Shown: positions 4,532-48,976 of the stretch, piece by piece
How the letters are laid out: each line of letters starts with the position of its first letter
Numbering within the stretch: the first letter of the stretch is position 1
From: a virus
Lineage: Duplodnaviria > Heunggongvirae > Uroviricota > Caudoviricetes
Virus record (IMG/VR): IMGVR_UViG_2541047786_000002
Coordinates: 1-48,976 of that record
Reading direction: 5' to 3' (one strand)
DNA: 48,976 bases
Notes under the pieces: generated by a model
Databases searched by the model: none
The model's input: only the letters and a program-made list of their open reading frames with translations
What the model was told of the DNA's origin: nothing
Translations under genes and position numbers: made by a program

Positions 4532-4588
4532 AAAAAGGGCGGCAGAGCAGTCACGGAGTAAAACTGATACCGCCAAACGTCACCAGAA
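4532..4588 (-). ncRNA. dicF: DicF small regulatory RNA (ftsZ-targeting sRNA of dicB operons)
   Basis: Reverse complement reads TTTCTGGTGACGTTTGGCGGTATCAGTTTTACTCCGTGACTGCTCTGCCGCCCTTTTT, matching recalled E. coli DicF; lies just upstream of dicB on the same strand, as in Qin. Confidence 0.8.
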
Positions 4589-11817: not shown

Positions 11818-12028
11818 AAACGGTTTGCGGGAAAAGGAGAGTTAAGTAGAATTGCAGCGGGTGCTTGAGGCTATCTGTCTCAGGCATGAACACCAAAAGG
11901 CAGATAGAGAAAAGCCCCAGTTAACATTACGCGTCCGGCAAGACGCTTAACATTAATCTGAGGCCATATCTATGCTCTACACACGTAGGTTAGCCTCTTA
12001 CGTGCCGAAAGGCAAGGAGAAGCAGGCT

Positions 12029-12184
12029 ATGAAGCAGCAAAAGGCGATGCTAATCGCCCTGATCGTCATCTGTTTAACCGTCATAGTGACGGCACTGGTA
12101 ACGAGGAAAGACCTCTGCGAGGTACGAATCCGAACCGGCCAGACGGAGGTCGCTGTCTTCACAGCTTACGAACCTGAGGAGTAA
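12029..12184 (+). CDS. hokD: Hok/Gef-family membrane toxin (HokD/RelF-type)
   Basis: 51-aa product MKQQKAMLIALIVICLTVIVTALVTRKDLCEVRIRTGQTEVAVFTAYEPEE matches recalled E. coli HokD; track ORF 11972..12184 is an in-frame N-terminal extension. Confidence 0.85.
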   Translation: MKQQKAMLIALIVICLTVIVTALVTRKDLCEVRIRTGQTEVAVFTAYEPEE

Positions 12185-12350: not shown

Positions 12351-12965
12351 ATGCAGAATTTATCTCAACAGTTGTTAGAAGCATATGACAAGGAGTGCCG
12401 CAAAGAGCTTTCGATCGCGTTAGCACAGGCTTATCTTCATTCGCATATGAAGGCAAAAGAGTTTGGTTCTTTTTGGGCTCAAGCACAGTCATATTTGCGC
12501 TGGTTTTATGCCGATGCATTGCTTGAGAATGCGGCTAAGCGTGTGGGGCTGGATTTTGAAGTCGGTAGCAATGCTGCTAAAAATTGTAAACACATTGCGA
12601 TTCACTCGAACAACTGGAAAATGACGGCACATCATTTATCGGGTAATGCGCCACTTCCTAAGCAGGCATTGTATAGAGCTGTTTACGCTAATCAAAATTA
12701 TGAATTGAATTTTGGGGATGAAAATGCCGACTCCCTGGATGGGAGAGCGTCTGGTGGACATGTTTATATGTTACATGATGGCAGTAATCAGCACTTGTCC
12801 AAACTGAATTTAACTGTTCCTTCTTCGGATAATTACGGGATTCTTTATACTGAGTCTTTACCAATTATGACGATGGTAGAAGTTGAAGCAGAAAATGTGG
12901 ATTCTGAGATTGAAGATAAAATCAAGATTCTTACCGAGCAAATAATTAAATCACAGCAATCATGA
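12351..12965 (+). CDS. Hypothetical protein (204 aa), first gene of candidate two-gene module; no recognisable family
   Basis: ORF with upstream SD; stop overlaps the downstream start (ATGA at 12962-12965); AT-rich by eye. Confidence 0.6.
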   Translation: MQNLSQQLLEAYDKECRKELSIALAQAYLHSHMKAKEFGSFWAQAQSYLRWFYADALLENAAKRVGLDFEVGSNAAKNCKHIAIHSNNWKMTAHHLSGNAPLPKQALYRAVYANQNYELNFGDENADSLDGRASGGHVYMLHDGSNQHLSKLNLTVPSSDNYGILYTESLPIMTMVEVEAENVDSEIEDKIKILTEQIIKSQQS

Positions 12966-14107
12966 GCATGAATATCGCACAAACACCATTTACTGATAAA
13001 TCGTTTAATCCTCGTCGCCTTGAGGAGGCAAGAGAGGCAAAAGGGTTGACGATGGCTGAACTTGCCAGAGTGCTCAATATTTCAAGACAAGCTATTTCGT
13101 CATTTGAGAAGGGGTTGAAGTCTCCCTCTGCTGATACACTTTCTGCAATAGCCAAGGTGTTAGGATTTCCAGAACGATTTTTCTTAGCCTCCAGTGCTTC
13201 TCCATCTCTGGAGGGGGCGATTCATTTTAGAAGTCGTTCAACTGCGACCAAAAAGGCTCGAGTTACAGGGAAAACACGTGGGCGTTGGGCGGCATTAATA
13301 TTGGATGAATGTCTAAAATATGCTCAATTACCAGATGTGGTTCTGCCTGAATTCGATATTATTGATTTTGAGGTTCTGTCTCTATCTGATATTGAGGATA
13401 TGTCCACCCAATTAAGGCGTTTTTGGGGGTTAGGTGATGGTCCAATACTCAATTTAACTAGACTTGTTGAAAATAAAGGAATCGTGGTTTCTCATTTACC
13501 TTCTGGTGAGAAAGTTGATGCCTTTTCGTTCTGGCATAATGGGCGGCCTTTAATTATGTTAGATAGCTCGAAGACGGCTGTTCGCATGCGATTTAGTCTT
13601 GCTCATGAACTTGGCCATTTAATTATGCATAGGGCAGTGGAGGATGACTACCTGAATGATAAAGAATTATTCGACCTAGTGGAGTTGCAGGCCGATTATT
13701 TTGCCTCCAGCTTTTTAATGCCAGCCACGACTTTCGGGCGTGAATTTTATAGTCCAAATTTATCAGCGTTAGAACGATTAAAACTACGTTGGATTACATC
13801 TATCGGTAGTATTGCCATGAGGAGTCATAGCCTTAAGTTAATTAGCGATAATCAGAAAAGCTATATATTTAAGCAATTAGCGCCATTCCATCGTAGGGAG
13901 CCGTTAGATGATGCAATCCCAAAAGAAGAGCCTGAGTTACTTAATAAGTTACTTTTACTTCTTGATAAGCATTCAATCATAAAGGTAACTGAGTTAACTG
14001 ATATCTTTGCTCTTCCTTTAAATGAGTTATCTGCAATTACACGATTTAAAGAATCAGATATGATTCATTCTGACAATGTTATTTCATTTACCATAAAACA
14101 AAAATAA
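12962..14107 (+). CDS. HTH_XRE-ImmA/IrrE (COG2856, M78-like) zinc metallopeptidase fusion protein
   Basis: 381 aa; N-terminal XRE-type HTH (LTMAELARVLNISRQAISSFEKG); HEXXH motif AHELGHLIMH (His215-Glu216-His219, DNA 13604..13618) plus downstream LQADYFAS motif typical of ImmA/IrrE. Confidence 0.75.
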   Translation: MSMNIAQTPFTDKSFNPRRLEEAREAKGLTMAELARVLNISRQAISSFEKGLKSPSADTLSAIAKVLGFPERFFLASSASPSLEGAIHFRSRSTATKKARVTGKTRGRWAALILDECLKYAQLPDVVLPEFDIIDFEVLSLSDIEDMSTQLRRFWGLGDGPILNLTRLVENKGIVVSHLPSGEKVDAFSFWHNGRPLIMLDSSKTAVRMRFSLAHELGHLIMHRAVEDDYLNDKELFDLVELQADYFASSFLMPATTFGREFYSPNLSALERLKLRWITSIGSIAMRSHSLKLISDNQKSYIFKQLAPFHRREPLDDAIPKEEPELLNKLLLLLDKHSIIKVTELTDIFALPLNELSAITRFKESDMIHSDNVISFTIKQK

Positions 14108-15549: not shown

Positions 15550-15930
15550 ATGACTGAACGCATAGAATTTGTTTTGCCTTACCCGCCAACGGTGAACACT
15601 TACTGGCGACGCCGTGGCAGCACATATTTTATCTCGGAGGAGGGAAAGCGTTATCGCCGGGCTGTGGCGCTTATTGTTCGCCAGCAGCGGCTGAAATTAA
15701 GCCTGTCCGGAAGGCTGGCGATAAAGGTGATTGCAGAGCCACCGGATAAGCGTCGTCGCGACCTGGACAATATTCTGAAAGCACCACTGGATGCGCTGAC
15801 GCATGCCGGACTTCTCATAGACGACGAGCAGTTTGATGAAATCAATATTGTGCGCGGTCAGCGCGTTCCTGGGGGGCGGCTGGGCGTGAAGATTTACCCC
15901 ATAATGCTTGAAGGGCAGGTCAAAAAATGA
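15550..15930 (+). CDS. rusA: Holliday-junction resolvase RusA
   Basis: 126 aa; conserved RusA motifs (VLPYPPTVNTYW ... RRRDLDNILKAPLDALTHAGLL); TAAATG coupling to the upstream gene. Confidence 0.85.
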   Translation: MTERIEFVLPYPPTVNTYWRRRGSTYFISEEGKRYRRAVALIVRQQRLKLSLSGRLAIKVIAEPPDKRRRDLDNILKAPLDALTHAGLLIDDEQFDEINIVRGQRVPGGRLGVKIYPIMLEGQVKK

Positions 15931-16748
15931 AACTGGAAGATTTACCGAAATACTACTCCCCAAAATCCCCCGGCCTGACTGATGCATCGGCCTCAACGTC
16001 GAAAGATGCGCTGAGTATCACTGATGTGATGGCCGCGCAGGGCATGACACAGAATCGGGCTGAGATGGGGTTTTCTGCGTTCCTTGGGAAAATGGGCATT
16101 AGTATGAATGACAGAGAGCGGGCAACAGAATTGCTGACAGAATATGCACTCAGTCGGTGCGATCGTGTGGCGGCGTTGAGAAAACTTCCGGCAGAAATAA
16201 AACCGGTAGTGATGCGCATTATGGCTTCGTATGCGTTTGAAGATTATGCCCGTAGCGCGGCGAGCAAAAAACAGTGCCCCTGCTGTCACGGAAAAAAATT
16301 TATTGAAAGCGAGGTTTTTACAAACAAGATCCAGTATCCGGATGGTAAGCCACCAGTGTGGGCAAAGTGCACAAAAGGCGTGTATCCGTCTTACTGGGAA
16401 GAATGGAAAAAAGTCAGGGAGGTGGTAAAAGTTGCCTGTCCGGAGTGTGGCGGAAAGGGTGAGGTTTCCACCGCCTGTAAGGATTGCCGTGGGCGTGGTG
16501 TCGCCATTCACCGTGAAGAGTCGGTAAAACGTGGTATGCCTGTTATCAGAGACTGCCAGCGTTGTGGTGGTCGTGGCTATGAAAGACTACCATCAACGGA
16601 GGCATTTAATGCTATATGCGAGGTGACAAACCAGATAACACGCGCGTCATGGGAAAAAACAGTTAAGAAATTCTATGATGCGCTGGTGACCCGGTTTGAT
16701 ATTGAAGAAGCATGGGCTGAGCGGCAGTTAAAAAAGGTAACTAGGTAA
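15927..16748 (+). CDS. Late-gene antiterminator Q (phage 82 / QuuQ-like family)
   Basis: 273 aa with multiple CxxC zinc-finger motifs (CPCCHGKK, CPECGGKG, CKDCRGRG, CQRCGGRG); immediately upstream of a pR'-tR' unit; ATGA-coupled to rusA. Confidence 0.7.
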   Translation: MKLEDLPKYYSPKSPGLTDASASTSKDALSITDVMAAQGMTQNRAEMGFSAFLGKMGISMNDRERATELLTEYALSRCDRVAALRKLPAEIKPVVMRIMASYAFEDYARSAASKKQCPCCHGKKFIESEVFTNKIQYPDGKPPVWAKCTKGVYPSYWEEWKKVREVVKVACPECGGKGEVSTACKDCRGRGVAIHREESVKRGMPVIRDCQRCGGRGYERLPSTEAFNAICEVTNQITRASWEKTVKKFYDALVTRFDIEEAWAERQLKKVTR

Positions 16749-16753
16749 CAAGG

Positions 16754-16781
16754 TTGATTTTTCCGGAATCTGTGGTAAATT
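16754..16781 (+). promoter_or_regulatory. Late promoter pR'-like (Q utilisation region)
   Basis: -35 TTGATT (16754-16759), 16-nt spacer, TG-extended -10 TAAATT (16776-16781), directly after Q. Confidence 0.5.
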
Positions 16782-16828: not shown

Positions 16829-16855
16829 AACCCGCCGCCGAGCGGGTTTTTTATT
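16829..16855 (+). terminator. tR'-like rho-independent terminator (ends a short leader transcript)
   Basis: Stem CCCGC / GCGGG with 6-nt loop followed by TTTTTT, about 50-75 nt downstream of the pR'-like promoter. Confidence 0.55.
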
Positions 16856-16891
16856 GCGGAATTAATTACGGACCGTTATTATTCTGCTCCC

Positions 16892-16967
16892 GGCCCTTTA
16901 GCTCAGTGGTGAGAGCGAGCGACTCATAATCGCCAGGTCGCTGGTTCAAATCCAGCAAGGGCCACCA
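16892..16967 (+). tRNA. tRNA with CAT anticodon (ileX/ileZ-like tRNA-Ile2; Met not excluded)
   Basis: 76-nt cloverleaf: acceptor GGCCCTT / AAGGGCC, anticodon loop CTCATAA, T-loop TTCAAAT, encoded CCA; closely resembles recalled E. coli ileX. Confidence 0.8.
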
Positions 16968-17067
16968 TCACAAACCGCCATTAGCTTATCAGGAAGAGCA
17001 GACGACGCGATAACAGGGTTGTTGGTGCGGGGGCGGGTCCCCGATGGCGGTCCATTATCGGTATTCA

Positions 17068-17141
17068 GCGTTGTTAGCTCAGCCGGACAGAGCAATTGCC
17101 TTCTAAGCAATCGGTCACTGGTTCGAATCCAGTACAGCGCG
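17068..17141 (+). tRNA. tRNA-Arg (anticodon TCT), argN/argO-like as in Stx-type phages
   Basis: Acceptor GCGTTGT / ACAGCGC (one G-U), anticodon stem ATTGC / GCAAT with loop CTTCTAA, T-arm ACTGG TTCGAAT CCAGT; CCA not encoded. Confidence 0.75.
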
Positions 17142-17281
17142 CTATATTCATTCTTCCAGATTCCTTCCGGCAGAGCCTTATACTGAAATATACCTGGCTC
17201 AGGATATTGTTGAAAATATTATATGTTTGTCAAAAATAAAAGTTCTGTTAAGTATTGATTGAGTGTTTGTTATACGGTCTA

Positions 17282-17608
17282 ATGGTTTTTTCAGCATTAA
17301 ATATTTATCATTCATATGGTGTGGGTAGAGTGAATATTGATGAGGCGTCGGGGTGTTTCATCCTTAGGCAGCGTATTGATATAGTCAATGCAGCACGAGC
17401 AAAGGCCTTCAGCCGTTTGACAGTTTTGTTCTGTACTCCTGATCGTCTTTCGGGAAGAGACGTTATTATTCTGAATAGTGATGCTATTCAGAGGGTTTGC
17501 GATGAGTTCATGGTTGCTAATTCAGAATTATTTGCTCTTGTTCAGGAGTACAACAGAATAGCCAGGACCTGTGGTATGGATGAACTTCGGATTACTCATC
17601 TGGGGTAG
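17282..17608 (+). CDS. Hypothetical protein (109 aa from ATG 17282; track ORF starts at TTG 17255) in the toxin-cargo slot
   Basis: AT-rich ORF without a clear SD; no family recognised; coding status uncertain. Confidence 0.3.
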   Translation: MVFSALNIYHSYGVGRVNIDEASGCFILRQRIDIVNAARAKAFSRLTVLFCTPDRLSGRDVIILNSDAIQRVCDEFMVANSELFALVQEYNRIARTCGMDELRITHLG

Positions 17609-18010
17609 ATACATATCTGGATTATCACTTGTTACGGTAAAAAGTGATTGCTTACTGTTTTTGTGAGTGGCATTGCAGCAGCCGGATAATGTCAGTGCTG
17701 GCTGACGGTGTGCTGGTGGCGGGTGTGGTGGTTGTTGCTTTCCCGTTGCTGAAAAAGAAAACGCCAGACTGTTAGCCGGGTATCAGTTAGCGGGAGAAAT
17801 TTTTAAATACTTCACAATTCAGGCGGTTGACTGTTGTCTGGTTTGCGGGGAGTTTGTTAAAAGAAACTGGCATGGTGAATCCCCCTGTGCGGAGGGGCAA
17901 TCAGCGAGTAGGTATATGGGATAATCGCGGATTCAGGTGCTGGTACTGAATTCACCGGGAGGCACCCGGCACCATGCAATGGCACATAGCGCCACTCTCC
18001 AGCCCCTCTC

Positions 18011-18046
18011 CGGAGGGGCTGTTTATATTGATTTTGTCAGATGTGA
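18011..18046 (+). terminator. Rho-independent terminator-like hairpin
   Basis: Perfect 8-bp stem AGCCCCTC / GAGGGGCT with TCCG loop followed by a T-rich tract GTTTATATTGATTTT. Confidence 0.5.
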
Positions 18047-18055
18047 GTAAACTCC

Positions 18056-18391
18056 TTATGGACTTTGTTGTTTTAGTCCATAAGGACATATTTGCAGAGT
18101 GCAACGGTTATTAAAGCATTCATTCAATACGTTATCTGTATTTGTAGGACATTCCTGGCTGTTTTTGATTAAATTCCAGAATGTTTTATTGAATGGTGCT
18201 ACGTTGTAAATGGTTACAGGTAGCACTTTGTTATTGAGCATGATACCTGTGTGAGTCAGTGTAAATATACTTTCAGGAGGTAAGAAAGCATCCGATTGAT
18301 ACCAGATTATTAATTTTATTTTACTCCATATGACTGAAAAAGATATTCCGCATGATGGCTGGATAACTGTATCAATCACAATCCACTTCAT
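18056..18391 (-). CDS. Hypothetical Cys-rich protein (111 aa) in the toxin-cargo slot
   Basis: Minus-strand ORF with good SD (AAGGAA about 6 nt upstream of ATG); AT-rich codon usage; no family recognised. Confidence 0.45.
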
Positions 18392-18636
18392 TTAGTTTCC
18401 TTGTTTATGTCTTGCTGGTGATGTTCTGAAAAGTATAAATGATATTTTTGAATGTAAACCATAGAGCAGAATTATTTTTCTGATGTTGTTTATTGTTTAT
18501 TTAAATGCAGGGTGGTTTATATCTCGTCTTGTAGTTTATCCATGCATATCTGCTTGATGATGAGGTTTTTATTTAAGGTATGGTTTTGTGTTTTTTCTGT
18601 ATTACATGTCAGGTATTTTAAAGAATTATTTTTCAG

Positions 18637-20613
18637 ATGGTGGAAAGAACCATGGCATTTAAACACTATGATGTTGTCAGGGCGGCATCGCCGTCAGACC
18701 TTGCGAAACGACTGACACAAAAACTGAAGGAGGGGTGGCAGCCATTTGGCAGTCCGGTGGCCATCACGCCTTATACCCTGATGCAGGCCATTGCGGCGGA
18801 AGGTGATGTCACCACACCTGTGGTGGTGAAGCCGTCGGATGGAGAAGGCGCAGTTATCAGCACCACCAGCAACCCGGAGTATTACTTTGTTGTTGCCCTG
18901 GCCGGGCAGTCAAACGGTATGGCGTATGGTGAAGGGCTTCCGCTGCCGGAGACATATGACCGTCCGGACCCGCGTATTAAACAGCTGGCGCGTCGCAGCA
19001 CTGTCACGCCGGGTGGTGCGTCCTGTAACTACAATGACATTATTCCTGCGGACCACTGCCTGCATGATGTTCAGGATTTGAGTAAGTTTTCACACCCGAA
19101 AGCCAGCGCAGCTCAGTATGGATGCGTGGGGCAGGGATTACATATCGCGAAGAAATTGTTGCCGTTTATTCCGGCGAATGCCGGTATTCTTCTGGTTCCG
19201 TGCTGCCGTGGTGGTTCTGCATTTTTGGCGGGCGATGAAGGTACCTTCAGCGAATCCACCGGCGCAAGCGAGACCTCGGCACGCTGGGGTGTTGATAAGC
19301 CACTGTACAAGGACCTGCTTACCCGTACTCAGGCCGCACTGAAGGCCAACCCTAAAAATATTCTGCTTGCAGTGGTCTGGATGCAGGGCGAGTTTGATTT
19401 GAAACAGGGTGCATACGCCACTCAGCCGGGGCTGTTTGATTCCATGGTGGAAAAATATCGTTCTGACCTGTCGGAATTCGGAGGTCAGTGTCTCGGGGGC
19501 TCTCCGTCATCGGTTCCCTGGATTTGTGGCGACACGACCTACTACTGGAAGCAGACTTATTCTTCGCAATACGATGCGGTGTATGGTGCATACAAGACGA
19601 AATCCGCAAAAAAAATCTTCTTTGTGCCGTTTATGACGGATGAAAACGGGCGAAATGTGGGTACCAACGAGCCGTCAGAAGATCCGGATGTTGCGGATAT
19701 TGGGTATTACGGAGCCGGTGGTCGAACGGACGCCAAAACCTGGACGACGGCCGACCGTAAAACGCATTTTGGATCATGGGCACGTCGTGGGATTATTTCC
19801 GACCGTCTGGCAACGGCGATTCTTGTGCATGCCGGGAGAAACGCTGAATTCATTACCGGAAAACAGCCTGATACGGTGAAGCCCACCGGACCTTCCGGTG
19901 AAGGTACGGAGAGAGAGCCGGAAGCCCCGGTCAGTAACCGAACCCTGATGAGTCTGCTGGCGTCCGGCGAAGACCTGGCATCACAGGGCTGGCGCTATTA
20001 TCACAAACCGGCGAGCGGAGACAATGTTAACAAAAACATTGCTGAAGCGGTGGTCAGTGATGCGGGGGCTACGGGAGGTAAGGCCCTGCAACTGAATAAA
20101 CCGGAAAACCACATCTGGTTTCTGGAGCATGATGCAGCCGGACAGGGAGTGGAGTTACTGAAGAAGGGGGGACGTGTGAGCGTACGGTTTAAGTTGCCGG
20201 GTTCACTGGTGCCGAATCAGTTTGCCCTGGGCATTTACTGGCAGTTGTCGTCCCTGCCGGAGGGAGTGACGCTGGCAGAGGAAGGCAACGACATGCTGAT
20301 GTCCTTCTTTCTGCAGACGGATGCGACGAACCTGAACGCGATGCACCACAAGAAGCCGAATGCGAAGCTGGAAACGTTCGGGGTCTTTGATAACGGATGG
20401 CACACACTGGCTTTTGAGTTTGCCGGAAACAACAGCATTCAGGTGACGCCGGTACTGGATGAGAAACGGGGGACGCCGTTCACACTGGTGAAATCTCCGG
20501 CATCAGGGGCGGCGGACAAACTGCAACTGACAGGCATATCAAAGGCGGCGACATATACGCTGCTGATTGACAGTGTGAAGGTGGAAGTGAACAACGCGGA
20601 CATCGCGGCATGA
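18637..20613 (+). CDS. nanS-p: NanS-p-type sialate O-acetylesterase (DUF1737 N-terminus plus SGNH/SASA esterase domain)
   Basis: 658 aa; N-terminal MAFKHYDVVRAASPSDLAKRL (DUF1737-like); GQSN motif (ALAGQSNGMAYG) of SGNH hydrolases; located after Q-tRNAs as in Stx phages; alternative start ATG 18652. Confidence 0.8.
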   Translation: MVERTMAFKHYDVVRAASPSDLAKRLTQKLKEGWQPFGSPVAITPYTLMQAIAAEGDVTTPVVVKPSDGEGAVISTTSNPEYYFVVALAGQSNGMAYGEGLPLPETYDRPDPRIKQLARRSTVTPGGASCNYNDIIPADHCLHDVQDLSKFSHPKASAAQYGCVGQGLHIAKKLLPFIPANAGILLVPCCRGGSAFLAGDEGTFSESTGASETSARWGVDKPLYKDLLTRTQAALKANPKNILLAVVWMQGEFDLKQGAYATQPGLFDSMVEKYRSDLSEFGGQCLGGSPSSVPWICGDTTYYWKQTYSSQYDAVYGAYKTKSAKKIFFVPFMTDENGRNVGTNEPSEDPDVADIGYYGAGGRTDAKTWTTADRKTHFGSWARRGIISDRLATAILVHAGRNAEFITGKQPDTVKPTGPSGEGTEREPEAPVSNRTLMSLLASGEDLASQGWRYYHKPASGDNVNKNIAEAVVSDAGATGGKALQLNKPENHIWFLEHDAAGQGVELLKKGGRVSVRFKLPGSLVPNQFALGIYWQLSSLPEGVTLAEEGNDMLMSFFLQTDATNLNAMHHKKPNAKLETFGVFDNGWHTLAFEFAGNNSIQVTPVLDEKRGTPFTLVKSPASGAADKLQLTGISKAATYTLLIDSVKVEVNNADIAA

Positions 20614-48005: not shown

Positions 48006-48338
48006 TTAATAAAGAGGGGGTAGCCCATATTTTGCACGAGCGCGGTTGCATGCTTCATTCACGATGCCGTGTTCTCCGGACATCGGAAATTCTCTGCAGG
48101 TGGATGAGCGATGTTCATAAATGCTGCAGTAGGCATTGACTCCCGGTTGGCCGATCAGGGCCACACAGCGAGGATTTTTCTGGTTAGTGCCCTGCATGCA
48201 TTGATGGTAGGGAGAGATTTGTTCTGTCATCGTTACGGGGATGGTGCCGCCAGCATCATCTGTTTCAACCCAGTAAAAAGAGACGCGGAAAAATGCACAA
48301 CAGGCACCACACGTCATACATGGATTAGGATTGTTCAT
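48006..48338 (-). CDS. ykgJ: YkgJ-family Cys-cluster protein (host gene)
   Basis: 110 aa with [17 protein letters not shown] ... RCVALIG ... [15 protein letters not shown] motif, resembling recalled E. coli YkgJ. Confidence 0.7.
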
Positions 48339-48523
48339 ACTTTTATTGCTTTAGCATCAATGAGTTATTATTACAGATGTAACTGCAGAATTATGAATGG
48401 CATTCTGATATTTCTTTTATCATTTTGTTTACTTTTTATTTACTTTTGTAACTTGAAAAAGTGCTGTCTATGGTCAATTAATTATAATGCAATCTATGAA
48501 TTGCAATCCCATAATTACTTTTA

Positions 48524-48976
48524 ATGGTGACTACTATGACTAAATGTTCAAACCTTAGACAGCAGATTATGGATGATGTACAAAGAAGATATGGAGAATA
48601 TCTTGATAAGGATAAAGTATCTTGTATTACAAGCAAGATAGCTGCGGCAGAAAATAAATACCCAGCAAAAACTACATTAGCTAGTGCAATATTTTATATA
48701 AAAGTAGACACTCAGATCACCAGTGAAGGTGGAAAACATTTTTCGGGAAATGCAGGAGGATTATCATCTCCAGGTGGTGGTGTGCTGTTTGGTGACTTAT
48801 ATACAGATGATTTGGATGATCTGTATACAAATACGGTTAGCTTCCAGATAACAATGACCCCTGTATTTTGTAGTGTATTGTTTTTTGATTCTGCATCAAA
48901 TCTTTTGGGGCATTTCGAGGGAGGTGGTGTGTCAACAGTATCGGGTGTTGCAGGTGGCACAGGCTCGTGGTCCTGA
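48524..48976 (+). CDS. Hypothetical Gly-rich protein (150 aa), AT-rich host-side gene at window edge
   Basis: ORF ending exactly at the window end; Gly-rich C-terminus; no family recognised. Confidence 0.3.
   Translation: MVTTMTKCSNLRQQIMDDVQRRYGEYLDKDKVSCITSKIAAAENKYPAKTTLASAIFYIKVDTQITSEGGKHFSGNAGGLSSPGGGVLFGDLYTDDLDDLYTNTVSFQITMTPVFCSVLFFDSASNLLGHFEGGGVSTVSGVAGGTGSWS

What the first reader, a model, noticed from the sequence alone, without database searches (positions are those of the whole stretch)
17150..18636. AT-rich cargo in the slot occupied by stx in Stx phages
Between the phage tRNAs and nanS-p (where Stx phages carry stxAB) lies about 1.5 kb of markedly AT-rich DNA with two convergent ORFs of unknown function (17282..17608 plus; 18056..18391 minus, Cys-rich, good SD) and two related hairpins (17882..17897 and 18011..18030). 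Anything on the plus strand here would be expressed from pR' under Q antitermination and released by lysis, like Stx.
Basis: partly seen in the sequence, partly recalled or inferred. Interest (0 to 1): 0.55.

Follow-up and report, generated by a model that had tools for sequence, protein, structure and literature searches.

The report
Prophage iraL, STnc100 sRNA, small ORFs
The AT-rich stretch is accessory prophage cargo that is mostly already known: iraL (protects the stress sigma factor RpoS from degradation), the phage small RNA STnc100, a truncated tciB gene, and one conserved small gene of unknown function.

Summary
About 1.5 kb (39% GC against 51% for the window) lies between the phage tRNAs and nanS-p, with two convergent ORFs and two related hairpins.

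Slot A (tRNAs to sRNA, about 17143-17811) is the true stx position. It holds ORF1, a real but unannotated roughly 92-aa gene (dN/dS 0.34, phrog_2873), and a 5'-truncated tciB (DUF3927). These look like the remnant of an ORF1-tciA-tciB module.

Both hairpins belong to the Rfam sRNA STnc100 (17841-18030, 132 bits against a cut-off of 47). The same sRNA follows stxB in Stx phages.

Slot B (18031-18651, 32% GC) holds the minus-strand ORF. This is iraL, 110/111 identical to the characterised CFT073 RssB anti-adaptor, and the published transcription start sequence is present. It points against late transcription, so pR'/Q cannot express it.

In the other phages examined, slot B carries the antisense sRNAs AsxR or AgvB, or a third IraM-family paralogue right next to stx2.

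The main parts are already known and annotated. ORF1 is the only real unknown. Interest is low to moderate.

The parts
16754..16781 (+). pR'-like late promoter just after Q (TTGATT, 16-nt spacer, TAAATT). Context, not cargo.
   Evidence: Read from the sequence. Q is Pfam PF03589 Antiterm at 15927..16748. Promoter function is inferred from position and, from my own knowledge, from resemblance to lambda pR' (-10 TAAATT).
16829..16855 (+). tR'-like intrinsic terminator (AACCCGCCGCCGAGCGGGTT followed by TTTTTAT)
   Evidence: Terminator scan; coordinates checked.
16892..16967 (+). Phage tRNA with anticodon CAT (ARAGORN calls it Met; RefSeq annotates the identical gene as tRNA-Ile, ileZ-like)
   Evidence: Homologous to the 933W tRNA block.
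17068..17142 (+). Phage tRNA-Arg (TCT). Left boundary of the cargo.
   Evidence: Homology to 933W ends at 17152.
17330..17608 (+). ORF1: conserved 92-aa protein of unknown function (phrog_2873). The open frame extends upstream to ATG 17282 and TTG 17255. It sits in the true stx slot.
   Evidence: PHROG hit at 2.8e-70. Full-length homologues down to 32% identity. dN/dS 0.34 against 1.19 and 0.81 in the shifted frames. AlphaFold pLDDT 89.3, helix / beta-hairpin / helix. No Pfam or NCBIfam match. No feature is annotated over it in the records inspected or in 9 of the 10 RefSeq rows listed.
17644..17775 (+). DUF3927 / TciB-like 43-aa ORF. It is a 5'-truncated tciB that lacks the first hydrophobic helix. 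tciA is absent.
   Evidence: Pfam PF13064 at 95.6 bits; phrog_1470 'TciB-like'. Comparison with JLK-2012, O111:H11 and L013 TciB shows that identity starts at 'SSRIMSVLADGVLVAG'.
17841..18030 (+). STnc100-family sRNA (PasD relative).
   Evidence: Rfam RF02076 at 132.4 bits against a gathering score of 47, model positions 1-206 of 206. Terminator. The same family lies just 3' of stxB in 933W, 75/02, 1717 and EH2201.
18031..18651 (-). iraL cassette (slot B), 32.4% GC. It takes the place of the spacer of roughly 170-260 bp that other phages have between the sRNA and the nanS-p ribosome-binding site.
   Evidence: Junction alignments, BLAST maps, GC.
18056..18391 (-). iraL: RssB anti-adaptor, 111 aa
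   Evidence: NCBIfam NF007393 IraM at 162.4 bits against a cut-off of 121. 110/111 identical to CFT073 IraL. 63% identical to K-12 IraM. Matches PDB 8twd IraM(1-78)-RssB at 2.2e-32.
18395..18458 (-). iraL promoter and leader: -35-like TTTACA 18458..18453, 15-nt spacer, -10 TATACT 18437..18432, published start-site sequence beginning at 18424, Shine-Dalgarno AAGGAAAC 18402..18395
   Evidence: The 5'-RACE sequence 'ACATCACCAGCAAGGCATAAACAAGGAAACCA' from PMC4045071 matches the window with 2 differences. The 285-column upstream alignment (CFT073 plus phage 640R1) has 97% mean column identity. Coordinates by script. The hexamer assignment is my own reading.
18652..20613 (+). nanS-p (SASA family sialate O-acetylesterase). 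Right boundary; real start is ATG 18652.
   Evidence: Pfam, the RefSeq CDS start, and homology to Stx phages resuming at the ribosome-binding site and ATG.

Best explanation
The stretch is a two-slot accessory ('moron') region in the leader of the late operon of a lambdoid prophage. The order is Q, pR', tR', tRNAs, slot A, STnc100 sRNA, slot B, nanS-p, lysis genes.

Slot A is the position that holds stxAB in Stx phages. Here it carries, on the late strand, a small conserved gene of unknown function (ORF1) and a truncated tciB. Together they look like the remnant of an ORF1-tciA-tciB module. Transcription of these by read-through from pR' and/or a tRNA-associated promoter is inferred, not shown.

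STnc100 is shared backbone and ends in an intrinsic terminator.

Slot B carries iraL on the opposite strand, with the published CFT073 start-site sequence and sigma-70-like elements upstream of it. [quoted passage not shown] That was shown experimentally for a protein 110/111 identical to this one.

Two steps are my inference. In a lysogen, iraL is expressed while pR' transcripts stop at tR'. After induction, Q-modified polymerase reads through the terminators and runs antisense across iraL, which should dampen it.
For: Identity of iraL: NCBIfam IraM score above cut-off; 110/111 identity to CFT073 IraL; 98.5% nt identity over CDS plus upstream region (H91); published start-site sequence present.

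Function of IraL: sigma-S stabilisation and binding to the RssB N-terminal domain are reported in PMC4045071. An IraM-RssB complex structure exists.

STnc100: 132 bits, full length.

Two-slot architecture:
- 933W is tRNAs, stxA2B2, STnc100, AsxR(-), nanS-p.
- Phage 75/02 is stx1AB, STnc100, AgvB(-), esterase.
- Phages 1717 and EH2201 are stx2AB, STnc100, IraM-family gene(-), nanS-p.
- O111:H11 8D and JLK-2012 are tRNAs, tciA-tciB, STnc100, no gene annotated before nanS-p.
- L011 has an empty slot A and a second STnc100 copy in slot B.

Tree et al. place AsxR '282 bp 3' and antisense to stx2AB'.

Prevalence: 1446 of 5426 complete E. coli genomes match the iraL stretch. 1376 cover at least 80% of a query spanning sRNA, iraL and the esterase start. 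863 carry the whole 1.5-kb arrangement.

ORF1 is a gene. tciB is truncated and L013 has ORF1-tciA-tciB intact.
Against: No expression data exist for this particular prophage. Lysogen expression of iraL and late-promoter expression of ORF1 and tciB are inferred from CFT073 and from Stx-phage biology.

The -35-like hexamer has a short 15-nt spacer by my reading, and I could not see the elements the paper itself predicted.

The hairpin downstream of iraL has no U-tract on the minus strand, so where iraL transcripts end is unknown.

ORF1 has only a GTG start with a weak Shine-Dalgarno, and no CDS is annotated over it in the records I inspected. Its function is unresolved, because the fold searches gave no significant match.

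The truncated tciB may be non-functional.
Confidence: 0.85

Rival explanations
1. One reading: the ORFs are unknown cargo analogous to Stx, expressed from pR' under Q antitermination and released on lysis.
For: The slot A ORFs (ORF1 and the tciB remnant) are on the late strand, downstream of pR'/tR' and the tRNAs. That is the position of stxAB in 933W and 75/02.
Against: The largest and best-supported gene, iraL, is on the opposite strand, with the published start-site sequence in place, and its target is cytoplasmic. By my reading ORF1 has no signal peptide, and its model is a soluble helical hairpin. The tciB copy is truncated. Nothing here resembles a toxin.
Confidence: 0.07
2. Slot A is decaying junk: ORF1 is not a functional gene and the whole 17143-17811 stretch is a non-coding remnant of a tciA-tciB module.
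For: No CDS is annotated over ORF1 in the two RefSeq records inspected or in 9 of the 10 rows listed. It has a GTG start with a weak Shine-Dalgarno. The neighbouring tciA is deleted and tciB is truncated. It matches no Pfam or NCBIfam family.
Against: dN/dS is 0.34 in frame, with an excess of third-position changes (35/33/54), against 1.19 and 0.81 in the shifted frames. This rests on one 56%-identical homologue. Full-length homologues of 91-95 aa go down to 32% identity and share the motif AFSRLTVLFCTPDR. The gene has its own PHROG family. The fold prediction is confident at pLDDT 89.3. 1185 genomes cover at least 80% of the ORF1 query.
Confidence: 0.2
3. iraL in this prophage is silent (for example H-NS-silenced AT-rich DNA) and contributes nothing to the host. 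The cassette is just hitch-hiking.
For: The cassette is 32% GC and its upstream region 30% GC. From general knowledge, DNA of that composition is typical of H-NS-bound, horizontally acquired DNA.
Against: The near-identical CFT073 locus is transcribed in log phase from the mapped start site and measurably stabilises RpoS. iraL mRNA responds to a temperature upshift, and IraL levels rise in a fur mutant. The ORF, Shine-Dalgarno and -10 element are conserved here.
Confidence: 0.1

Closest known systems
IraL of uropathogenic E. coli CFT073 (c1429; Hryckowian et al. 2014, PMC4045071)
   Same: 110/111 amino acids identical. The same upstream region with the published start-site sequence. The same immediate context of DUF3927, sRNA, iraL and a DUF1737/esterase gene inside a lambdoid prophage late region.
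   Different: One substitution (A65 here, V65 in CFT073). CFT073 has an IS200 after Q, three tRNAs instead of two, and a truncated nanS-p. The paper calls the location the 'potB genomic island' and does not describe it as a defined prophage slot.
IraM of E. coli K-12 (b1160), the PhoPQ/low-Mg2+-induced RssB anti-adaptor; PDB 8twd
   Same: Same protein family: 63% identity over 107 aa, the NF007393 model, and a match to residues 1-78 of the solved IraM-RssB complex. Most RssB-contacting residues are kept: C14, F18, W30, I61 and Y62.
   Different: Nucleotide homology is confined to the CDS, so the promoters are unrelated. K-12 iraM lies beside the e14 attachment scar, with no STnc100 nearby. According to PMC4045071, IraL binds only the RssB N-terminal domain and acts in log phase. 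IraL also has a 4-aa C-terminal extension, QQSP.
IraM-family paralogue of Stx2c/Stx2a phages (phage 1717, 2851, Stx2_EH2201 and others)
   Same: Same slot and same orientation: stx2AB, STnc100, ira gene on the minus strand, nanS-p. 76% amino-acid identity to the window's IraL.
   Different: A distinct lineage: 107 aa and 65% identical to K-12 IraM. It is mostly unannotated or 'hypothetical' in the phage records. I found no experimental work on it.
AsxR and AgvB anti-sRNAs of EHEC prophages (Tree et al. 2014, PMC4104026)
   Same: Positional analogues. They lie between STnc100 and nanS-p, antisense to the late/stx transcript ('282 bp 3' and antisense to stx2AB'). They are prophage elements that act on host (core-genome) regulation.
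   Different: They are sRNAs of 51-60 nt that act on the host sRNAs FnrS and GcvB, not a protein acting on RssB. Neither is present in this window.
STnc100 (Rfam RF02076) / PasD sRNA family
   Same: Full-length covariance-model match at 132 bits. The published location is about 75 nt downstream of the stx2 operon and next to esterase genes.
   Different: The 3' third, which includes the terminator stem, differs between phages, and homology to most relatives stops at about 17978-17986. The function and targets of STnc100 are not established.
TciA/TciB (TerB-family protein plus DUF3927) modules, e.g. phage JLK-2012
   Same: The DUF3927 ORF matches Pfam and PHROG 'TciB-like' models. The module occupies the same slot A in JLK-2012 and O111:H11 8D.
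   Different: Here tciA is missing and tciB has lost its first hydrophobic helix, which is replaced by 11 unrelated residues.
stxAB of Stx-converting phages (933W, 75/02)
   Same: stxAB occupies the tRNA-to-STnc100 interval, as ORF1 and the tciB remnant do here.
   Different: There is no sequence or structural relationship to Stx. iraL is not in this interval.

Membership tests
IraM/IraL RssB anti-adaptor family | Sequence match to the curated family model above its cut-off | tested here: met
   NCBIfam NF007393 at 162.4 bits against a cut-off of 121, residues 1-110. PDB 8twd IraM at E 2.2e-32.
IraM/IraL RssB anti-adaptor family | Belongs to the iraL allele group (the paper's criterion: at least 95% identity to CFT073 iraL) | tested here: met
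   110/111 aa identical. 98.5% nt identity over 599 bp to CFT073 (H91).
IraM/IraL RssB anti-adaptor family | The iraL-type promoter and start site rather than the PhoP-dependent iraM promoter | tested here: met
   The published 5'-RACE sequence is present with 2 differences. The 285-column upstream alignment (CFT073 plus phage 640R1) has 97% mean column identity. There is no nucleotide homology to the K-12 iraM upstream region.
IraM/IraL RssB anti-adaptor family | Binds RssB and stabilises sigma-S in vivo | not testable with these tools
   Shown for CFT073 IraL in PMC4045071. Inferred here from near identity.
STnc100 sRNA (Rfam RF02076) | Covariance-model score at or above the gathering threshold, over the full length | tested here: met
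   132.4 bits against 47, model positions 1-206 of 206, E 4.9e-31.
STnc100 sRNA (Rfam RF02076) | Rho-independent terminator at the 3' end | tested here: met
   A 9-bp G+C-rich stem at 18000-18021 followed by TTTATATT. -20.3 kcal/mol, z = -4.2.
STnc100 sRNA (Rfam RF02076) | Synteny: downstream of the stx/cargo slot and upstream of the esterase in lambdoid prophages | tested here: met
   The same family hit lies 3' of stxB in 933W, 75/02, 1717 and EH2201, and 3' of tciB in JLK-2012 and O111 8D. Literature.
STnc100 sRNA (Rfam RF02076) | Expressed as a discrete, Hfq-associated transcript | not testable with these tools
   No clear sigma-70 promoter was found upstream. It may have its own promoter or be processed from the late transcript.
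DUF3927 / TciB | Pfam PF13064 match above the gathering score | tested here: met
   95.6 bits against 25; phrog_1470.
DUF3927 / TciB | Full-length protein with both hydrophobic segments, paired with an upstream TerB-family tciA | tested here: not met
   The N-terminal helix (RLAVVALLLFLVVMV in JLK-2012) is absent, and there is no tciA between 17608 and 17644. The intact arrangement is seen in L008, L010 and L013.
Cargo of the stx slot of Stx-type lambdoid phages | Located between the phage tRNA block and STnc100, on the late strand | tested here: met
   True for ORF1 and the tciB remnant at 17153-17811. The test for iraL is the next row.
Cargo of the stx slot of Stx-type lambdoid phages | iraL lies in that same interval | tested here: not met
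   iraL lies downstream of STnc100 on the opposite strand. Phages 1717 and EH2201 have stx2AB and an ira gene in separate slots.
Prefoldin beta-like coiled-coil proteins (considered for ORF1) | Significant structural match | tested here: not met
   Best Foldseek PDB hit is 2zdi_B at E 0.029 with rmsd 8.1 A. No hit reaches E 0.001 in PDB or BFVD. The helical-hairpin topology is generic.

The most novel reading that the evidence does not exclude
ORF1 (phrog_2873) is an unrecognised accessory factor. It is a conserved 92-aa helical-hairpin protein present in about 22% of complete E. coli genomes. No CDS is annotated over it in the RefSeq records inspected, and it sits in the exact position of stxAB. 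In one relative it is linked to TerB-type TciA/TciB and in another to an AraC-like regulator. Separately, slot B may be a general antisense slot (AsxR, AgvB, IraL, the Stx2c-phage Ira). Its convergent placement against the late operon could couple prophage induction to a shut-off of host-directed regulators, here RpoS stabilisation. That would include an uncharacterised Ira paralogue sitting next to stx2c.
Probability: 0.15. Interest if true: 0.45.

Novelty: already known. Interest (0 to 1): 0.25.

Why it matters
The finding has little novelty in itself. iraL was characterised in 2014, STnc100 is a curated Rfam family, and RefSeq already labels the gene 'anti-adapter protein IraM'.

What the comparison adds is organisation. 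The leader of the late operon of Stx-type lambdoid prophages has two distinct cargo positions, split by the STnc100 sRNA. One is a late-strand slot (stx, tciAB, ORF1). In the other, every gene or annotated RNA seen apart from extra STnc100 copies lies on the antisense strand (AsxR, AgvB, iraL, and an Ira paralogue next to stx2 in Stx2c and some Stx2a phages).

That frames iraL, described in the paper as lying on a 'genomic island', as a standard prophage lysogenic-conversion gene. About 95% of the genomes that match it (1376 of 1446) have it in this same context.

It also points to two cheap experiments. Does the Stx2c-phage Ira paralogue raise RpoS in EHEC? Does ORF1 do anything?

Tried and rejected
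1. Fold assignment for ORF1. The AlphaFold model is confident, but Foldseek against PDB and BFVD gave only generic helical-hairpin and prefoldin-like hits, all above E 0.001. The afdb50 library was unavailable.

2. Genomic context of distant ORF1 relatives. The 4-sequence alignment found only two loci, though one of them (L013) was informative. P0013 was not on record.

3. Expression data for the CFT073 neighbours of iraL (c1427, c1428). Nothing was found.

4. A PhoP-box or K-12 iraM-like promoter upstream of iraL. Rejected, because homology to K-12 stops at the start codon.

5. Flanking direct or inverted repeats that might explain how the iraL cassette was inserted. Only short, chance-level repeats turned up.

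6. A sigma-70 promoter for STnc100. No convincing match.

7. My first reading of the iraL -35/-10 spacing as 17 nt was wrong. A script gives 15 nt.

8. Literature linking IraM-family genes to Stx phages. No relevant paper was found.
Full report
**1. Observation**

The window has a lambdoid late-regulatory layout.
- Antiterminator Q (PF03589) lies at 15927..16748.
- A pR'-like promoter (TTGATT, 16 nt, TAAATT; 16754-16781) and an intrinsic terminator (16829-16848 plus a T-run) follow.
- Then come tRNA(CAT) at 16892..16967 and tRNA-Arg(TCT) at 17068..17142.
- After a 1509-bp gap comes the SASA esterase nanS-p. Its real start is ATG 18652.

The finding's span is 39.3% GC, against 50.9% for the window. 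The AT-richness is patchy:

| Segment | GC |
|---|---|
| Slot A (17143-17811) | 40.8% |
| DUF3927 ORF | 51.5% |
| STnc100 sRNA | 55.3% |
| iraL cassette (18031-18651) | 32.4% |

The iraL cassette is the most AT-rich 600 bp in the window. Both ORFs exist. The two hairpins share 15 of 17 nt.

**2. The minus-strand ORF is iraL**

- ORF 18056..18391 scores 162.4 bits on NCBIfam NF007393 'anti-adapter protein IraM', against a cut-off of 121.
- It is 63% identical to K-12 IraM.
- It matches the IraM chain of the IraM-RssB crystal structure 8twd.
- It is 110/111 identical to the CFT073 protein. The DNA, including the upstream region, is 98.5% identical to CFT073.

The CFT073 gene is iraL (c1429). Hryckowian et al. 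2014 (PMC4045071) showed that it is an RssB anti-adaptor. [quoted passage not shown] They mapped its start site as 5'-ACATCACCAGCAAGGCATAAACAAGGAAACCA.

That sequence is present in the window with two differences, starting at 18424 on the minus strand. It is preceded by TATACT (18437..18432) and TTTACA (18458..18453), with a 15-nt spacer. The hexamer assignment is my own reading.

Homology to K-12 iraM stops at the start codon, so the PhoP-dependent iraM promoter is not present here. Later papers report higher IraL levels in a CFT073 fur mutant and a rise in iraL mRNA after a shift to 37 C.

**3. The hairpins belong to a known sRNA**

Rfam finds a full-length STnc100 (RF02076) at 17841..18030 on the plus strand. 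It scores 132.4 bits against a gathering score of 47. The first hairpin (17882-17898) is an internal helix of the model. The second (18000-18021 plus a T-run) is its terminator.

STnc100 has been reported about 75 nt downstream of the stx2 operon (PMC12370729). It has also been reported as a relative of the EPEC sRNA PasD, associated with esterase genes (Zhu, Shabalina and Storz, 2026 preprint).

RefSeq annotates a 'hypothetical protein' pseudogene on the minus strand across this sRNA. That is most likely an artefact.

**4. Boundaries and the two-slot architecture**

BLAST maps and junction alignments show the backbone shared with Stx phages:
- the tRNA block (16852-17152);
- the 5' two-thirds of STnc100 (about 17803-17986);
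- nanS-p, from its ribosome-binding site onward (about 18640 on).

The contents of the two slots in the relatives examined:

| Phage or strain | Slot A (tRNAs to sRNA) | Slot B (sRNA to nanS-p) | Calls |
|---|---|---|---|
| 933W | stxA2B2 | AsxR (minus strand) | 31, 86, 89 |
| Shigella phage 75/02 | stx1AB | AgvB (minus strand) | 20, 86 |
| Stx2c phage 1717 and Stx2a phage EH2201 | stx2AB | 107-aa IraM-family gene (minus strand) | 81, 83-86, 90 |
| O111:H11 8D and JLK-2012 | tciA-tciB | no gene annotated there | 34, 52, 56 |
| L011 (poultry strain) | empty | second STnc100 copy | 53, 77 |
| Phage 640R1 | no ORF1 | extra STnc100 copy, then iraL | 33, 36, 77 |
| This window | ORF1 plus truncated tciB | iraL (minus strand) | above |

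Tree et al. 2014 describe AsxR as '282 bp 3' and antisense to stx2AB', which agrees with the 933W row. The Stx2-phage Ira paralogue is 76% identical to IraL and 65% identical to K-12 IraM.

So the stx-equivalent slot is 17153-17811. iraL occupies a separate, downstream slot. In the relatives examined, every gene or annotated RNA in that slot, apart from extra STnc100 copies, lies on the minus strand.

Counts among 5426 complete E. coli genomes:
- 1446 match the iraL stretch;
- 1376 cover at least 80% of a query spanning the sRNA, iraL and the esterase start;
- 863 carry the complete 1.5-kb arrangement.

**5. Slot A contents**

*ORF1.* It has no Pfam or NCBIfam hit. No CDS is annotated over it in the two RefSeq records I inspected or in 9 of the 10 rows listed. 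It nevertheless behaves like a gene:
- It matches phrog_2873 over its full length.
- Homologues of 91-95 aa go down to 32% identity and share the motif AFSRLTVLFCTPDR.
- Against a 56%-identical homologue, dN/dS is 0.34, compared with 1.19 and 0.81 in the shifted frames.
- AlphaFold gives a confident helix / beta-hairpin / helix model, pLDDT 89.3.

The distant homologues, and L013 in particular, begin at 'MNIDE'. The likely start is therefore GTG 17330. Fold searches give no significant match; the best is prefoldin beta at E 0.03. Function remains unknown.

In L013 the ORF1 homologue is followed by intact tciA (TerB family) and tciB. In L009 it follows an AraC-like regulator and precedes STnc100.

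*DUF3927 ORF (17644..17775).* It scores 95.6 bits on Pfam. It is a tciB that has lost its first hydrophobic helix, and tciA is absent. Slot A therefore looks like a partly decayed ORF1-tciA-tciB module.

**6. Mechanism**

Shown elsewhere, for a 110/111-identical protein: IraL binds RssB and blocks RssB-dependent degradation of sigma-S by ClpXP.

Inferred here:
- In the lysogen, pR' transcripts stop at tR' while iraL is transcribed from its own promoter, which raises RpoS.
- ORF1, the tciB remnant and STnc100 lie on the late strand. After induction they would be read by Q-modified polymerase, as is established for stx in Stx phages.
- That same read-through runs antisense over iraL.

The hairpin 3' of iraL has no U-tract on the minus strand. 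iraL transcripts may therefore extend antisense into STnc100. This has not been tested.

**7. Verdict**

However, the headline ORF is a known, characterised and annotated gene, and the hairpins are a known sRNA.

What remains:
- a small, unannotated, conserved gene of unknown function (ORF1);
- the two-slot organisation;
- the observation that Stx2c and some Stx2a phages carry an uncharacterised IraM-family paralogue right next to stx2.

Rating: already known. Interest 0.25.

Noticed in passing
L014 4003-4326 (-) in Stx2c phage 1717; L015 3503-3826 (-) in Stx2a phage Stx2_EH2201; 41 phage records in all: Many Stx2c and some Stx2a converting phages carry a third IraM-family paralogue (107 aa; 76% identical to IraL, 65% to K-12 IraM). 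It sits immediately after stx2B and STnc100, antisense to stx. It is mostly unannotated or 'hypothetical', and I found no literature on it.
   Followed up: partly
window 17860..17985 (-), equivalent to L001 6718-6843: RefSeq/PGAP annotates a partial 'hypothetical protein' pseudogene on the minus strand that lies entirely inside the STnc100 sRNA. It is probably an annotation artefact.
   Followed up: partly
window 18053-18064 / 18075-18086: A perfect 12-bp inverted repeat with a 10-nt loop spans the iraL stop codon. It encodes the 4-residue C-terminal extension (QQSP) that IraL has and IraM lacks. It might act as a 3' stabiliser or weak terminator for iraL.
   Followed up: no
L007 4165-4358 and 4634-4822; L011 2501-2691 and 2969-3178: Some prophages carry two tandem, diverged STnc100 copies (about 70-78% identical) in the same leader. 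In L011 the second copy sits where iraL sits here.
   Followed up: partly
window 17978-17986: Homology to five unrelated phages (933W, 75/02, mEp460_ev081, JLK-2012, O111 8D) ends at the same point inside STnc100, just after the CACCATGCA closing helix. This suggests a recombination hotspot. It also means the sRNA's 3' third, with its terminator, is exchangeable.
   Followed up: partly
window 12962..14107 (+): A 381-aa ORF with an N-terminal HTH_3 domain and a Peptidase_M78 (ImmA/IrrE-like, HEXXH) domain lies in a lower-GC stretch (34-47%) between the hok/sok locus and the DUF968-RusA-Q genes. The CFT073-type relative L001 has rem at about that position.
   Followed up: partly
window 11859-12034 (+) and 4537-4588 (-): Rfam gathering-level matches to the sok antitoxin RNA (117 bits) and to the DicF sRNA (76.7 bits) elsewhere in the prophage.
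   Followed up: no
window about 48201-48950: A second markedly AT-rich stretch (33-35% GC in 600-bp windows) lies at the right end of the window. It is the only other place as AT-rich as the iraL cassette.
   Followed up: no
L009 164-889 (+): In one metagenomic contig the ORF1 homologue lies directly downstream of a 241-aa AraC-family regulator (HTH_18/HTH_AraC) and upstream of STnc100. This is another variant of slot A cargo.
   Followed up: partly
L002 6414-8108 (K-12, 1211413-1213107): K-12 iraM lies just outside the e14 attachment scar (icdC), next to ymgK, ymgL and the DUF1398 gene ycgX. DUF1398 genes also occur in lambdoid late regions (ydfO in L003). No STnc100 is present there.
   Followed up: partly
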